Of a DNA stretch of 64,000 bases, positions 44,856 through 50,301 are shown piece by piece. The notes below the pieces were generated by a model. It saw nothing but the letters and a program-made list of their open reading frames with translations, ran no database searches and had not been told where the DNA came from. Both the position numbers and the translations under genes were made by a program. Every line of letters begins with the position of its first letter. Within the stretch, counting starts at the first letter, position 1. Location: assembly GCF_009914755.1 (NCBI RefSeq), contig NC_060925.1; one strand, 5' to 3'. This DNA comes from the human T2T-CHM13v2.0 reference genome, Homo sapiens.

Positions 44856-45497
44856 TCTGGCGCTAAACTTCATGCTACTGAAGAATAGCAAGATGCGTAA
44901 GTTGTGAGCCTTGCCATCAAGGAGTTTATAGTCTAAAAGGAGAGCTTAGACAAGCACACAAATAATTATAACTCAATACAGAATGATTTTTTAAAATAGC
45001 GCAAATAAAGACTATGGAGTTCAGAGGAGGATAAGATCTCCTCTGGCCAGGGCATCAGGAAAGGTTCAAGTAGTACTCTAGAGCTGCGTCCTGCCTGCCT
45101 CTGCCTCCCTGCTCCCCTGCCTCCTCTCTATCACATTATCTTCCATTATTACCTGGAATTGTCTGGTTTATTTATTATTGTTTGTCTCTCCCTTCCTTCA
45201 GTAGAATACAAGCTCCAAGATGACGAGCTAACTTGTTTTGGACACTGCTGTATCCCTAATGCTTCACCTAATATCTGGCACTAACATGGATTTTTTTTTT
45301 AAAGAAAATTTGGAATGAATGAATAAAGTGTCATTGGCATCAGATCCCATAAGACAAACGGGATTGGTCATTCAGGAAAAGTTGCAGGGAAAGATATCAT
45401 TTTAGGTGAAGGGTACATGAAGTCCTACAGGGAATGGAGAATGAAAGATGGATCTAGAATATAGACTTAAGAAAAACTATAGAGGAAGCGGCTAACT

Positions 45498-45758
45498 ATG
45501 GCGACTGCCACTGAGCAGTGGGTTCTGGTGGAGATGGTACAGGCGCTTTACGAGGCTCCTGCTTACCATTTTATTTTGGAAGGGATTCTGATACTCTGGA
45601 TAATCAGACTTCTTTTCTCTAAGACTTACAAATTACAAGAACGATCTGATCTTAACAGTCAAGGAAAAAGAAGAACTAATTGAAGAGTGGCAACCAGAAC
45701 CTCTTGTTCCTCCTGTCCCAAAAGACCATCCTGCTCTCAACTACAACATCGTTTCAGG
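45498..45758 (+). pseudogene. SPTLC1P4: SPTLC1 processed pseudogene (N-terminal ~87 codons; probably the copy named SPTLC1P4)
   Basis: [24 protein letters not shown]...; intronless; +1 A frameshift at 45654-45655; ends at ...NYNIVSG. Confidence 0.88.
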
Positions 45759-47130
45759 ACGGAGTCTTGCTCTGTCACCAGGCTGGAGTGCAATGGTGCG
45801 ATCTCGGCTCACTGCAACCTCCACCTCCCGGGTTCAAGCCATTCTCCTGCCTCAGCCTCCTGAGTAGCCGGGACTACAGGCACAAGCCACCATGCCCACC
45901 TAATTTTTGTATTTTCAGTAGAGATGGAGTTTCACTATGTTGGCCAGAATGATCTCGATCTCCTTTTTTTTAATTAAAAAGTAAACTTTAATGTCGAAAA
46001 TGCAAACTTGGGGAGGGCAGAAAGATCACACACAAGGCTGTCACTTCACACTTGGAAGGTTGCACAGCAGCCGGGCAGAGACGCTCCTCACTTCCCAGAT
46101 GGTGAGGGGGCCGGGCAGAGGAGCTCCTCACTTCCCAGACGGTGCAGGGGCTGGGCAGAGGTGCTCCTCCCTTACAAACGGTGAGGGGGCCGGGCAGAGG
46201 TGCTCCTCACTTTCCAGACAGCGCCGCGGCTGGGCAGAAGCACTCCTCACTTCCCAGATGGGATGGTGGCCAGGCAGAGGCACTCCTCATTTCCCAGATG
46301 TTGAGGAGGCAGGGCAGAGGCACTCCTCACTTCGCAGACAGGACGGCGGCGAGGCAGAGGCGCTCCTCATTTCCCAGACGGTGAGGAGGCCGGGCAGAGG
46401 CACTCGTCTCTTCGCAGATGGGATGGCAGCGGGGCAGAGGCGCTCCTCATTTCCCAGATGGTGAGGAGGCCAGGCAGAGGCACTCGTCGCTTTGCAGACA
46501 GGACGGCAGCGAGGCAGAGGCGCTCCTTACTTCCCAGACAGGGTGGTGGCTGGGCAGAGGCGCTCCTCACTTCCCATACCGTGAGGCGGCCAGGCAGAGG
46601 TGCTCGTCACTTCCCAGATGGGGTGGAGGCTGGGCAGAGGTGGTGCTCCTCCTCAATTCCCAGATGGTGGGTGGCTGGGCAGAGGCGCTCCTCACTTCCC
46701 AGACAGGGCAGTGGCCAGGCAGAGGCACTCCTCACTTCCCAGAGTGTAAGGGGGCCGGGCAGAGGCTCTCCTAACTTCCCAGACAGGGTGGCGGCCTGGC
46801 AGAGGCACTCCTCACTGCCCAGATGGGGCAGGGCCCAGGCAGAGGTGCTCCTCACTTCCCAGACTGTGAGGCAGCCAGGCAGAGGCGCTCGTCACTTCCC
46901 AGACAGGGCGGGGGCTGGGCCGAGGCACTCCTCACTTCCCAGATGGTGGGGTGGCTGGGCAGAGGCGCTCCTCACTTCCCAGACGGTGGAGCAGCCGGGC
47001 AGAGGCGCTTCTCACTTCCCAGATGGTGCAGGCAGAGATGCTTCTCAGGTCTCAATCTCTTGACCTCCTGATCCACCTGCCTGGGCCTCCCGAAGTGCTG
47101 GATTACAGGTGTGAGCTACCACACCTGCCC
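45759..47130 (-). mobile_element. Alu split in two (45759-45963 and 47048-47130) by an SVA2-like insertion
   Basis: Alu consensus resumes after the VNTR with a duplicated g(g/a)tctc(g/a)atctc(c/t) target. Confidence 0.85.
45964..47047 (-). mobile_element. SVA2-like element: ~40-bp GC-rich VNTR + unique 3' tail + poly(A)
   Basis: ~24 copies of gggcagaggcgctcctcacttcccaga...; no CCCTCT hexamer and no SINE-R; ATTAAA (minus) at 45987-45992; T run at 45964-45971. Confidence 0.8.
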
Positions 47131-48353: not shown

Positions 48354-48479
48354 TTTGAGCGAGTTGTGCACAGACGAAACTAAGGGTCAGAAGCAGAGAG
48401 GATACTCCTAAGTCACCCACTTCTCTGTGGCCGGGTGCACACTGGGCATCTGGGAGTTTATGACATCACCATGGGGCTG

Positions 48480-48950
48480 GTGACAGAGCCAGGGTTGTGG
48501 AGGAGTGCTTAGGAGCCCAGCGAGGGTGCCTACAAGAGGGGTAAAAGGGCAAAGGGTGAGACCCTTCCACCGGTCCAGCTGGACTCTAGCCTCAGGGACG
48601 TCCTGCTCCTGGGGGCAGGTGTGTGGCCCTGGATGGGCCCCCCTGTGGGGCTGTTGGGGGTGCGGGGCTGATCTGCCAGAGCCCTTCCGCCTGGCGCCCG
48701 GCCCAGGTGCTGGCTGGCACCCAGTGGCCCTGTCTTGGCCGGCCCTGTCTCCCGGGTTACAGGGCCAGAACCTGGAAGCAGAGCGCAGGACCAGCCAGAT
48801 CCCGCTAGGCTCCCCCGGGTCCTCTCCAGTGCCTCTGTGCCGCCTGGAGCCAGGCCCGCCTTCTCCATGGCTGCTGTGGCCTCAAGGGCCACCAGCCCCG
48901 CTCCGCAGGTTTCCAAAGAGAGGACGCGGTGCCCTGACCTGACTGGATGC
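48480..48950 (-). promoter_or_regulatory. GC/CpG-enriched region upstream of the NPAP1-like ORF (possible co-retroposed promoter)
   Basis: High GC with retained CpGs, directly 5' of the ORF. Confidence 0.4.
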
Positions 48951-50301
48951 GCCTCTTACCACATGCCTCCCTGGCAGGCAGTGTCTCCACTTTTTACAAA
49001 TTTGCCTGAGACCATTCCTCAGGTCATTCAGGTGGTCATGGCCCAGCCAGGCTTTGAACCTGGGCTGTGTGATTCCACAGCTGGCGCTCTGGCCTGTGTG
49101 CCTCATGATCATGGATACAGCATCTATTCTTATTTTTTCCTGTAGTCCTGGGGTACTTAGCACCATGGCATATCTGTAATAAGCACATGCACACCTTGAA
49201 GGAGTTCTTCACTTCAGCATACAAGTTGACCATGGCATGCTCTGGGCTCCAGTCCTCTACAAAGATGTAGGGCAGGAACTACCAGTTGTCAGCACAGCAC
49301 CATCCCACATTACTCTTCTAATGGAGCCTTTCACCCCAGATGTTCTTTCTTGTTTGATGGGAAGGATCCAAGTATGTAAAGATTATGTTCTAGATCAGCT
49401 TTGGTCTGTCCTAAAAGAAATTTGCCAGTGGATTATTCCATATGGATAAAAGTCAGTTTCTCTGGTCTTCCTGGAATGTGTCTAGAAAGCAAATACATTA
49501 TTTACAAGTTCATAGTAGATCAATGTATTGGATTAAAATATGACAAACATAATTTGGTCATTGTGAGCATGCCAGCTCGGTCAACTATTCACCACACATG
49601 ATGCCCTAAATATAACTCTAGGTTTTCTTATGCCCAAGAGAGGGACATACTTTTGGGTGTCTGGACTAGGAAAACATGTATGAAAAACCATTTGACCACT
49701 CTACATCTTGTTATTGGAGAATTGAAACCATCTATATTCAAAGATATTATTAAAAGGCAAGAAGTTAAAAAAAAAGAAAAACTATTGAGATAACAAAGTG
49801 GATTAGATATGAAGAATAAGACAAGGTAAATGATGATTCCAAAGTTTGTGCCTTTGAAGCATGATAGAATGAAGATTGAGAGAATGACAGTAGGAAGGAA
49901 ATTGAGAAGACAAGCCAGTTTGTCTGGAAGTGGTTGACAATAGAAGGCGTCATATCTGTGAGCATTTGTAGAGACTGGATTGAAGTGCACAGTCAGGTTT
50001 GAACAAGGTGAATTGAGACTCATCAGTGTGAAAGAGATAATAGTAAGTTGGACCAAGCATGGGTTCTCACGAGGAGAAAGTTCATAAAAAGAAGAGTCCT
50101 TGGAAAGGGGGCACAGTCTTGGGCACTGGATGAGAGGAATTAACTAGGGAGATGGGGAAAGACCACTGAAGGGAGTATTTCATGAAAGACAGTCATCAAT
50201 GCCCGATGTCCAAAACTGTGGAAGCTGGAGGTCTTTAGGCTTGTTGGATGGAGGGCAACATCACCTTCAAAGGAATACTTCTTGAAGGATGATGGCAAAA
50301 A

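What the first reader, a model, noticed from the sequence alone, without database searches (positions are those of the whole stretch)
45469..49789. One 4.3 kb retrotransposition event carrying SPTLC1 5' exons plus an antisense passenger gene
A single TSD pair (aagaaaaactat, extendable to 16 nt with one mismatch), a TT|AAGA target and a plus-strand ATTAAA + poly(A) enclose spliced SPTLC1 sequence, an Alu, an SVA2-like element and an NPAP1-like ORF in the opposite orientation. Inference: the template was a prematurely terminated SPTLC1 transcript whose alternative last exon reads through an intronic NPAP1-like retrogene. The SPTLC1 promoter would then act as a vehicle dispersing the passenger gene with its own upstream region. 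This predicts that other SPTLC1 pseudogenes share the same cassette.
Basis: partly seen in the sequence, partly recalled or inferred. Interest (0 to 1): 0.7.

Follow-up and report, generated by a model that had tools for sequence, protein, structure and literature searches.

The report
SPTLC1 retrocopy carrying antisense UPF0607 gene
This 4.3 kb stretch is one L1-made copy of an unusual SPTLC1 transcript that ended inside intron 3 and so carried a whole backwards-facing NPAP1-like gene with its upstream DNA to a new chromosome, and the same cargo was copied to eight other places in the human genome.

Summary

**Structure.** A 12-nt target-site duplication occurs only twice in the window, at 45469-45480 and 49774-49785. 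It encloses:
- SPTLC1 exons 1-3, spliced;
- an antisense Alu split by an SVA2-like element;
- a 416-aa POM121/NPAP1-family ORF (UPF0607) on the minus strand, with 1.3 kb of NPAP1-homologous upstream DNA;
- ATTAAA and a short A-tail.

**Source.** The source lies in SPTLC1 intron 3 (chr9). There the Alu start is a T20-GAG|ACGGAG acceptor, all four junctions are GT-AG, and no poly(A) follows the cleavage site.

**Copies.**
- Nine genomic copies hold spliced exons 1-3, and all nine carry the whole cassette. Flanks differ at each site, and TSDs are clear in 8 of 9.
- Their 5' and 3' ends vary but match source DNA.
- The tree is a star, with 1.4-2.7% terminal branches.
- The canonical SPTLC1 3' exon has no other copy in the genome.

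**Passenger gene.** Its ORF is intact in 5 of 9 retrocopies, but dN/dS is about 1.2 and there is no CpG island, so function is unproven.

**Literature.** I found no description of the SPTLC1 link in the open literature.

**Not testable here.** Empty sites in outgroup primates and present-day transcripts.

The parts
45469..45480 (+). 5' target-site duplication AAGAAAAACTAT, preceded by TT (L1 endonuclease-like TT|AAGA)
   Evidence: 2 matches in the window against 0.06 expected.
45483..45554 (+). SPTLC1 exon 1 (5' UTR and start codon at 45498)
   Evidence: 97.3% identical to chr9:104281872-104281800, with a GT donor in the source; matches the N-terminus of SPT1.
45555..45663 (+). SPTLC1 exon 2, with a 1-nt insertion that breaks the SPTLC1 frame
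   Evidence: 97.3% identical to chr9:104279051-104278941, with AG and GT in the source; the frame diverges after residue 52.
45664..45758 (+). SPTLC1 exon 3
   Evidence: 99.0% identical to chr9:104275323-104275227. The source continues with gtaaat.
45759..45963 (-). 3' part of an Alu lying on the minus strand. Its start is the first base of the alternative terminal exon.
   Evidence: 7SL match on the minus strand; the source has T20-GAG|ACGGAGTC at this point.
45964..47047 (-). SVA2-like element on the minus strand, inserted into the Alu. It has an A-tail (45964-45971, read as T on +), a ~100-nt unique 3' piece (45972-46069) and a 40-bp VNTR (46070-47033).
   Evidence: period 40, 24 copies; the unique piece is a dispersed repeat, with 196 first-look candidates and 40 of 40 scored at 94-100%; flanking 13-mers at 45951-45963 and 47048-47060 match at 10 of 13. 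Lupan 2015 describes SVA2 as 40/39-bp units plus a 3' unique sequence.
47048..47129 (-). 5' part of the same Alu. The UPF0607 ORF ends inside it.
   Evidence: 7SL match on the minus strand at 47027-47129; the ORF's stop codon lies within it.
47103..48353 (-). UPF0607 / NPAP1-like ORF, 416 aa, intact here (RefSeq LOC100131107)
   Evidence: PF15229, E 8.8e-18; NPAP1 residues 1-363.
48354..49679 (-). Upstream region of the passenger gene, homologous to the region upstream of the NPAP1 ORF
   Evidence: 48696-49004 matches NPAP1 -649..-345 at 71%, and 49016-49679 matches -1685..-1018 at 77%.
49749..49754 (+). ATTAAA polyadenylation signal of the alternative SPTLC1 terminal exon. Cleavage falls after 49766.
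   Evidence: the same signal is in the source, which continues aacttctgtc with no A-run.
49767..49773 (+). Remnant of the poly(A) tail
49774..49785 (+). 3' target-site duplication AAGAAAAACTAT

Best explanation
Window 45469-49785 is one L1-mediated retrocopy of an alternative, prematurely terminated SPTLC1 mRNA.

**How the RNA was made (inferred from the source locus).** In the source gene on chr9, transcripts started at the SPTLC1 promoter and spliced exons 1, 2 and 3. They then spliced from exon 3 to an AG acceptor created by the poly-T end of an antisense Alu, 2.27 kb into intron 3. From there they ran unspliced for about 3.7 kb to an intronic ATTAAA site.

**What the terminal exon contains.** All of it lies in the opposite orientation to SPTLC1:
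- the Alu, split by an SVA2-type VNTR element;
- a truncated NPAP1-like retrogene (UPF0607, POM121 family);
- about 1.3 kb of that gene's own upstream DNA.

**How it spread.** L1 copied this RNA into at least nine places (chr1, 2, 6 twice, 8, 9, 10, 13, 16) within a short period. From branch lengths this is roughly the hominoid stem. A promoter-bearing gene was thus spread as an antisense passenger of a host-gene transcript.

**Shown:** the structure, the source, the splice and poly(A) sites, nine independent insertions and the star phylogeny.

**Inferred:** L1 as the agent, the timing, and that the isoform was expressed in the germline.

**Not shown:** that any passenger copy is functional.
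For: **TSD.** The 12-nt duplication encloses the whole unit.

**Source locus.**
- Exons 1-3 lie at chr9:104281872-104281800, 104279051-104278941 and 104275323-104275227.
- The cassette lies at 104272957-104269280 on the same strand.
- All four junctions are GT-AG.
- The SPT1 C-terminal exon lies on the same strand about 83 kb downstream.
- The acceptor reads T20-GAG|ACGGAGTC.
- After GAAGTT the source reads aacttctgtc. The retrocopies have A-runs there: at +0 in 7 of 9, at +6 in chr13 and at +10 in chr6:64M. The extra bases match the source.

**5' ends.** They lie 0, 0, 0, 0, 3, 3, 10, 21 and 27 nt upstream of AGGAAG, and all extra bases match the source promoter-proximal sequence. Longer copies therefore cannot derive from shorter ones.

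**Copy count.** One search gave 13 matches:
- 9 spliced copies;
- 3 true exons;
- 1 duplicate of exon 3.

All 9 spliced copies hold the full cassette.

**Independence of insertions.**
- Homology to the window starts at 45482/45483 and ends at 49768-49788 in all eight others. The query ran from 45200 to 50100.
- TSDs of 7-17 nt are clear in 8 of 9 copies.

**Phylogeny.** The tree is a star. All internal bootstraps are 72 or lower, and terminal branches are 0.014-0.027.

**The cassette is not a discrete element.** Two chr9 segmental duplicates are homologous to the source past both cassette ends. One spans 10.6 kb at about 94.7% and includes exon 3. The other spans 6.7 kb at 88-91%.

**Passenger identity.**

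**Canonical mRNA.** The SPTLC1 last exon plus 3' UTR (2446 nt) has only its self-match in the genome.
Against: - No outgroup primate genome could be searched, so the empty site and the dating are untested.
- No transcript data could be consulted, so the intron-3 isoform is inferred from DNA only.
- One of nine copies (chr6:23.7M) has no TSD by my criteria. The script stopped with an error there.
- An older retrocopy at chr8:36.6M (87% identity) is 5'-truncated and uses the same poly(A) site. It predates the split of the source from the chr9:100.01M duplicate. Plus-strand transcription through the cassette may therefore be older than, or independent of, its residence in SPTLC1, and the direction of that duplication is unresolved.

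Against 'dispersing a gene' in a functional sense:
- dN/dS against the majority state is 1.19, from 72 synonymous and 259 non-synonymous changes, p = 0.23 against neutrality.
- Indel density in the ORF is 0.51 per kb per copy, against 0.62 outside it.
- CpG o/e is about 0.35 upstream.
- The source ORF itself is now frameshifted.
Confidence: 0.9

Rival explanations
1. There are two unrelated neighbours: an SPTLC1 processed pseudogene (SPTLC1P4) and, inserted separately, a UPF0607 retro-pseudogene. The separate RefSeq rows suggest this reading.
For: The hub's annotation lists SPTLC1P4 (45483-45796) and LOC100131107 (47103-48353) as separate features.
Against: - One TSD pair encloses both features, and there is no poly(A) or TSD at 45758/45759.
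- The junction is an exact exon 3 donor joined to an Alu acceptor, and it is identical in 9 of 9 copies.
- The two parts are colinear in SPTLC1 intron 3.
Confidence: 0.01
2. A single ancestral chimeric insertion was later spread by DNA-level (segmental) duplication.
For: Segmental duplicates of the source region do exist on chr9, at 94.58M and 100.01M.
Against: - Homology among the nine spliced copies stops at the transcript ends.
- Each copy has its own TSD (8 of 9 clear), its own A-tail and its own 5' and 3' end position.
Confidence: 0.02
3. The chimera was made by the L1 reverse transcriptase switching templates, from a cassette RNA to an SPTLC1 mRNA, and not by splicing.
For: Template-switch chimeras are a known class of retrocopy. 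This rests on my recall; no call addressed it.
Against: - The breakpoint falls exactly on a GT donor and on an AG acceptor behind a T20 tract in one colinear locus.
- The same junction occurs in 9 of 9 independent insertions.
Confidence: 0.02
4. The cassette RNA is itself the mobile agent: an SVA-like composite element that L1 picks up preferentially and that trapped SPTLC1 exons by splicing, as SVA_F1 trapped MAST2 exon 1. On this view SPTLC1 only supplied a promoter.
For: - There are nine full-length copies plus one older truncated copy from a minor isoform, against 0 from the canonical mRNA.
- All 9 young copies are full length.
- The older chr8:36.6M copy uses the same poly(A) site.
- Exons are spliced to an acceptor in an antisense Alu, as the title and abstract of Damert 2018 (PMC6139936) report for non-canonical SVAs (seen in the listing only).
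Against: - In the source, homology to the chr9 duplicates runs past both cassette ends. The cassette is therefore not a discrete insertion there.
- The VNTR is antisense in the mobilised RNA. The sense orientation of the SVA VNTR that I compare it with is recalled.
- There is no hexamer repeat at the 5' end.
- No cassette copy has a different 5' partner.
Confidence: 0.12

Closest known systems
PMCHL1/PMCHL2 (retroposition of an antisense PMCH transcript)
   Same: An RNA transcribed antisense to a gene was retroposed, so the gene's sequence arrived at a new locus in reverse orientation relative to the retrocopy. PMC2621205: search listing and start of the abstract only.
   Different: - Here the carrier is a spliced, alternatively terminated isoform of a host gene (SPTLC1).
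- The passenger is a complete nested intronless gene with 1.3 kb of upstream DNA.
- The event recurred at least nine times.
Retrotransposon-mediated transduction of a gene (SVA 3' transduction of AMAC1) and SVA_F1 capture of MAST2 exon 1 by splicing
   Same: A gene or exon is moved by L1 machinery as part of a longer RNA. In SVA_F1, host exon 1 is spliced to an acceptor in antisense Alu sequence. The AMAC1 case is recalled and was not seen here. The MAST2 and splicing case was seen only as title and abstract listings.
   Different: - The driving promoter and 5' end belong to a housekeeping gene, not to a retrotransposon.
- The cassette is not a discrete mobile element at the source.
UPF0607 / NPAP1 / NPAP1L family of POM121-derived retrogenes (Neumann et al. 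2014, PMC3942032)
   Same: The passenger ORF belongs to this family. The paper describes UPF0607 as primate-restricted and as duplicated into a and b groups in a subset of primates. Table S2 lists those groups for human, chimpanzee and orangutan (passages; Table S2).
   Different: The paper's main text has 0 occurrences of SPTLC1. It gives no mechanism for the spread of UPF0607 copies.
Nested retrogene with host-gene intronic polyadenylation (H13/Mcts2)
   Same: A retrogene nested in an intron is associated with premature polyadenylation of the host transcript. PMC13309782: listing and start of the abstract only.
   Different: Here the host transcript reads through the whole antisense nested gene before ending, and that read-through RNA was retrotransposed.

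Membership tests
L1-mediated processed retrocopy | Introns removed at the source gene's canonical splice sites | tested here: met
   exon 1/2, 2/3 and 3/Alu-exon junctions all coincide with GT and AG in chr9 SPTLC1.
L1-mediated processed retrocopy | Poly(A) tail after a polyadenylation signal, absent from the source DNA | tested here: met
   ATTAAA, then 12 nt, then an A-run in 9 of 9 copies. The source and both segmental duplicates continue with (a)acttctgtc.
L1-mediated processed retrocopy | Target-site duplication at an A/T-rich nick site | tested here: met
   a 12-nt exact TSD at a TT|AAGA site; 8 of 9 family members have clear TSDs.
L1-mediated processed retrocopy | Empty site in species that diverged before the insertion | not testable with these tools
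   No primate genomes are held.
POM121 family (UPF0607 / NPAP1-like) | Match to the Pfam POM121 model above its curated cut-off | tested here: met
   PF15229, 65.4 bits against a cut-off of 27, residues 154-357.
POM121 family (UPF0607 / NPAP1-like) | Colinear with NPAP1 from the start codon, intronless | tested here: met
   residues 1-361 align to NPAP1 1-363 at 42.5%, E 1e-67, in a single uninterrupted ORF. The C-terminus is cut by the Alu.
SVA2 (ancestral VNTR element) | VNTR of 40/39-bp units followed by a 3' unique sequence and a poly(A) tail | tested here: met
   period 40, 24 copies; the ~100-nt piece next to the array is dispersed genome-wide (196 candidates). The description comes from Lupan 2015 passages.
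SVA2 (ancestral VNTR element) | Sequence identity to the reference SVA2 consensus | not testable with these tools
   No repeat library (Repbase or Dfam) is on hand.
Alu exonisation | Antisense Alu whose poly-T tract plus AG serves as the 3' splice site | tested here: met
   the Alu/7SL match is on the minus strand. T20-GAG|ACGGAGTC in the source, and the exon starts at ACGGAG in 9 of 9 copies.
Alu exonisation | The spliced isoform is observed as RNA | not testable with these tools
   No transcript data are available. The retrocopies are its only trace.
VNTR composite retrotransposon (SVA/LAVA/PVA/FVA type) | A discrete element with a hexamer repeat, an Alu-like region and a sense VNTR at the 5' end of the mobilised RNA | tested here: not met
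   - There is no hexamer repeat.
- The VNTR is antisense in the mobilised strand. The SVA sense orientation I compare it with is recalled.
- Source homology to the duplicates passes both cassette ends.

The most novel reading that the evidence does not exclude
The SPTLC1-exon1-3/Alu/SVA2/UPF0607 RNA behaved as an accidental composite retroelement driven by a housekeeping promoter, and L1 mobilised it far better than the canonical SPTLC1 mRNA (at least 9 copies against 0).

This antisense-passenger route would be the way the primate UPF0607 family expanded. Each copy arrived with its own NPAP1-type upstream region. Some copies would then stay coding or feed testis piRNAs.

Two observations are compatible with this:
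- 5 of 9 retrocopy ORFs are intact, and nonsense changes number 2 against 8.5 expected.
- A chr9 NPAP1 pseudogene, NPAP1P6, is reported as a testis and sperm piRNA cluster read from the strand antisense to the pseudogene. I could not establish which locus that is.
Probability: 0.25. Interest if true: 0.7.

Novelty: new variant of a known kind. Interest (0 to 1): 0.5.

Why it matters
Retrocopies normally arrive without a promoter. Here a nested gene rode antisense inside its host gene's alternative last exon, so it was copied with 1.3 kb of its own upstream DNA, nine times.

- This gives a concrete mechanism for the spread of the UPF0607 (NPAP1-like) family, which the family's main description leaves open.
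- It links pairs of annotation rows (SPTLC1P*, UPF0607/NPAP1P*) that are currently treated as unrelated pseudogenes.
- It preserves a fossil record of an Alu-exon, intron-terminated SPTLC1 isoform.
- The contrast of nine copies from this isoform against none from the canonical mRNA raises a testable question: what makes an RNA a good L1 substrate?

Tried and rejected
1. **NPAP1 as an antisense passenger.** I asked whether NPAP1 at 15q11 itself arrived this way, using the same poly(A) site. Homology to the cassette ends near window 49679, and no T-run lies upstream in the NPAP1 locus. There is no support for it.

2. **Purifying selection on the passenger.**
   - dN/dS is 1.12 for the 5 intact copies, 1.24 for the other 6 and 1.19 for all 11. 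None differs from neutral.
   - Indel density in the ORF is like that outside it.
   - Only a deficit of nonsense changes stands out: 2 observed against 8.5 expected, Poisson P = 0.009. I treat this as inconclusive because the ancestor is a majority-rule state and the numbers are small.

3. **A CpG-island promoter upstream of the ORF.** CpG o/e is 0.36 in the majority state and 0.19-0.34 in the copies. There is no island.

4. **Canonical SPTLC1 processed pseudogenes.**
   - A Pfam PF00155 scan of the genome scored only 9 of 54 candidates, and none could be assigned to SPTLC1. It was uninformative.
   - A 10 kb DNA query was swamped by Alus, with 39 of 42,479 candidates scored. It was also uninformative.
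   - An Alu-free query of 2446 nt, covering the last exon and 3' UTR, gave only the self-match.

5. **Direction of the duplication between SPTLC1 intron 3 and chr9:100.01M.** It is unresolved. The older relative at chr9:99.98M shares no flanks with either.

6. **Location of NPAP1P6.** It is not given in the passages, and the term has 0 occurrences in the searched supplementary files of PMC4436662. File 8 was not searchable.

7. **Literature.**
   - 'SPTLC1' with 'retrocop': 0 papers.
   - 'SPTLC1P': 14 papers. By title and abstract start, none is about retrocopies or pseudogene origin.
   - 'SPTLC1' with 'processed pseudogene': 5 papers. The one I opened concerns a different pseudogene near SPTLC1.
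   - 'UPF0607': 3 papers.
   - 'NPAP1P': 7 papers.

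Full report
**1. The observation**

- AAGAAAAACTAT stands at 45469-45480 and again at 49774-49785.
- Extended to 16 nt, the two copies differ at one base.
- TT precedes the first copy.
- ATTAAA lies at 49749-49754, and an A-run begins at 49767.

The 12-mer occurs exactly twice in the 64 kb window on both strands. Dinucleotide-preserving shuffles give a mean of 0.06, and none of 100 reached two matches.

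**2. The parts**

*Plus strand.* An ORF from 45498 matches residues 1-57 of human serine palmitoyltransferase 1 (PDB 6m4n_A, E 1e-28). It leaves the frame after residue 52.

*Minus strand.*
- Two 7SL/Alu-like matches lie at 45756-45900 and 47027-47129.
- Between them lie a short T-run (an A-tail on the minus strand), a ~100-nt unique piece and a tandem array of 24 units of 40 bp at 46070-47033.
- The unique piece is a dispersed repeat. The first look found 196 candidates, and all 40 that were scored are 94-100% identical.
- Lupan et al. 2015 (passages) describe SVA2 as arrays dominated by 40- and 39-bp units plus a 3' unique sequence. That fits, but I could not compare with a repeat library.
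- The 13-mers flanking this element (45951-45963 and 47048-47060) match at 10 of 13 positions. One Alu was therefore split by an SVA2-type insertion.
- The 416-aa ORF at 48353..47103 hits Pfam POM121 (PF15229, 65.4 bits, cut-off 27).
- It aligns from its first residue to NPAP1 residues 1-363 (42.5% identity, E 1e-67).
- Its last codons and its stop lie in the Alu.
- Further upstream on the minus strand, 48696-49679 is homologous to -345..-1685 relative to the NPAP1 start codon, at 71-77%. That is higher than the 66% seen in the coding part.

**3. The source**

The whole assembly could be searched.
- The 3' part (47103-49773) has 11 full-length places at 95-100% identity, including the window itself.
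- The SPTLC1 part (45481-45760) has 13 matches: nine contiguous (spliced) copies, three separate exons on chr9 and one isolated copy of exon 3. The exons lie at 104281872-104281800, 104279051-104278941 and 104275323-104275227. The isolated copy is at chr9:94577805-94577901.
- The cassette copy at chr9:104272957-104269280 lies on the same strand, 2.27 kb downstream of exon 3.
- A frame matching the last 31 residues of SPT1 lies about 83 kb further on, on that strand. The locus is therefore SPTLC1 and the cassette sits in intron 3.

In the source, exon 1 ends before gt, and exons 2 and 3 are flanked by ag and gt. The cassette begins at T20-GAG|ACGGAGTC, which is an AG behind the poly-T end of the antisense Alu.

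At the 3' end the source reads ...ATTAAAAGGTAAGAAGTT followed by aacttctgtcatttt, with no A-run. Both ends of the window's cassette are thus RNA-processing sites of one colinear genomic stretch.

**4. The family**

All nine spliced copies carry the Alu, the unique piece and the 2.7 kb ORF-plus-upstream block. They are on chr1 (the window), chr2, chr6:23.7M, chr6:64.4M, chr8:27.3M, chr9:28.2M, chr10, chr13 and chr16.

The VNTR interval varies from 19 nt in chr8:27.3M, where the array is lost, to 1227 nt.

With a query of 45200-50100, homology to the window starts at 45482/45483 and ends at 49768-49788 in every one. The flanks are unrelated.

| Copy | Extra nt at 5' end | Tail begins | TSD |
|---|---|---|---|
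| chr1 (window) | 0 | +0 | 12 nt, exact |
| chr13 | 27 | +6 | 15 nt, one mismatch |
| chr2 | 0 | +0 | 7 nt |
| chr9:28M | 0 | +0 | 16 nt |
| chr10 | 0 | +0 | 17 nt |
| chr8:27M | 10 | +0 | 15 nt |
| chr6:64M | 21 | +10 | 9 nt |
| chr16 | 3 | +0 | 8 nt with one mismatch; by eye 14 nt with two |
| chr6:23.7M | 3 | +0 | none by my criteria; the script stopped there with an error |

- The 5' extras are counted upstream of AGGAAG. In every case they match the source sequence upstream of exon 1.
- The extra bases at +6 and +10 match the source downstream sequence.
- These staggered ends cannot be inherited from a shorter copy. They point to repeated transcription from the SPTLC1 promoter and repeated cleavage near one site.

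A maximum-likelihood tree of 3.7 kb of alignment columns (the VNTR left out, chr9:100.01M as outgroup) is a star. All internal bootstraps are 72 or below, and terminal branches are 0.014-0.027. Non-CpG pairwise distances are 1.4-3.2%.

Set against ape and monkey divergences as I recall them, this places the burst roughly on the hominoid stem. That date is an inference, not a measurement. Neumann et al.'s Table S2 lists UPF0607a and b in human, chimpanzee and orangutan, and a single UPF0607 in marmoset. This is compatible.

**5. What the cassette is not**

It is not a discrete mobile element at the source.
- A 10.6 kb duplicate at chr9:94.58M (about 94.7% identity) includes exon 3, its gt donor and 3.6 kb beyond the poly(A) site.
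- A 6.7 kb duplicate at chr9:100.01M (88-91% identity) also passes both cassette ends.

An older relative at chr8:36.6M (87% identity to both the source and the 100.01M duplicate) is a retrocopy. It is 5'-truncated inside the VNTR and ends at the same poly(A) site, with an 11-nt TSD seen by eye. Plus-strand transcripts ending at this site were therefore being retrotransposed before the recent burst. Whether the cassette was already inside SPTLC1 then is not settled.

**6. Canonical mRNA**

An Alu-free query of 2446 nt, covering the last SPTLC1 coding exon and the sequence downstream of it, finds only itself in the genome. The same tool found 66-70% matches for other queries.

Processed pseudogenes are anchored at the 3' end. 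The canonical mRNA has therefore left no detectable copy, while the intron-3 isoform left nine full-length copies and perhaps the older truncated one. This asymmetry is the most surprising result. It is the basis of the bolder reading that this RNA was an unusually good L1 substrate.

**7. The passenger's state**

- The 416-aa ORF is intact in 5 of 9 retrocopies: chr1, chr2, chr8:27M, chr10 and chr13.
- It ends at residue 407 in chr9:28M.
- It is broken by frameshifts in the other three retrocopies, in the source itself and in the 94.58M duplicate.

Against the majority state, the 11 young copies show 72 synonymous and 259 non-synonymous changes. That gives dN/dS of 1.19, p = 0.23 against neutrality.

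Indels are as frequent in the ORF as outside it (0.51 against 0.62 per kb per copy). Nonsense changes are fewer than a spectrum-matched expectation (2 against 8.5, P = 0.009).

The upstream GC-rich block has CpG o/e of about 0.35.

I read this as no demonstrable constraint. The nonsense deficit is noted but not relied on.

**8. Literature**

- Neumann et al. 2014 (PMC3942032; passages and Table S2 seen) define UPF0607 as a primate-restricted, intronless POM121/NPAP1 relative. They say it 'duplicated in a subset of primate species'. Their text has 0 occurrences of SPTLC1.
- Searches for SPTLC1 with 'retrocop' found 0 papers.
- 'SPTLC1P' found 14 papers. By title and abstract start, none is about retrocopies or pseudogene origin.
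- 'SPTLC1' with 'processed pseudogene' found 5 papers. The one I opened concerns another pseudogene near the gene.
- Pantano et al. 2015 (passages) report a chr9 piRNA cluster read from the strand antisense to an NPAP1 pseudogene, NPAP1P6.
- Gebert et al. 2015 (one passage) list NPAP1P6 among transcripts mainly expressed in testis.
- I could not find which chr9 locus NPAP1P6 is (one supplementary file could not be searched).

Subscription-only literature and repeat or pseudogene databases were not available. 'Not described' therefore holds only for these searches.

**9. Verdict**

It is a new variant of known processes: Alu exonisation, intronic polyadenylation and L1 retrocopying of a host-gene RNA. 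The unusual outcome is that a promoter-bearing nested gene was multiplied as an antisense passenger.

Noticed in passing
L022:2600-5045 (chr9:104196599-104199044): The canonical SPTLC1 last exon plus 3' UTR has no other copy in the genome. There are therefore no canonical SPTLC1 processed pseudogenes, against nine from the intron-3 isoform.
   Followed up: partly
L012:3811-6392 (chr8:36.6M): An older retrocopy, about 87% identical, of the same plus-strand RNA. It is 5'-truncated in the VNTR, uses the same poly(A) site and has an 11-nt TSD. It also has an internal deletion and a later Alu insertion.
   Followed up: partly
L009 with L020 and L021 (chr9:94576865-94587802); L011 with L017 (chr9:100009568-100016739): Two intrachromosomal segmental duplicates of the SPTLC1 intron-3 region. 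The first spans 10.6 kb at about 94.7% and includes exon 3. The second spans 6.7 kb at 88-91%. The direction of the older duplication is unresolved.
   Followed up: partly
L006:3893-3930 (chr8:27.29M): This retrocopy has lost the whole VNTR, with 19 nt left. In the other ten young copies the VNTR interval ranges from 624 to 1227 nt.
   Followed up: no
window 48696-49679 against L016:850-2190 (NPAP1 locus): The region upstream of the ORF is more similar between UPF0607 and NPAP1 (71-77%) than the coding region is (66%).
   Followed up: no
chr10:80729931-80730352, chr10:88260504-88260925, chr10:51544204-51544620: Three chr10 places match the 3' end of the ORF region (window 47103-47570) at 77% identity. 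Their nature is unknown.
   Followed up: no
window 47103-48353 and its 10 young homologues: Nonsense substitutions are fewer than a spectrum-matched expectation (2 against 8.5, P = 0.009), although dN/dS is about 1.2.
   Followed up: partly
window 45483-45796 (RefSeq SPTLC1P4 row in the hub's table): The curated pseudogene span runs 38 nt past the end of exon 3 into the Alu exon. The annotated SPTLC1P4 therefore already includes the start of the alternative terminal exon.
   Followed up: no
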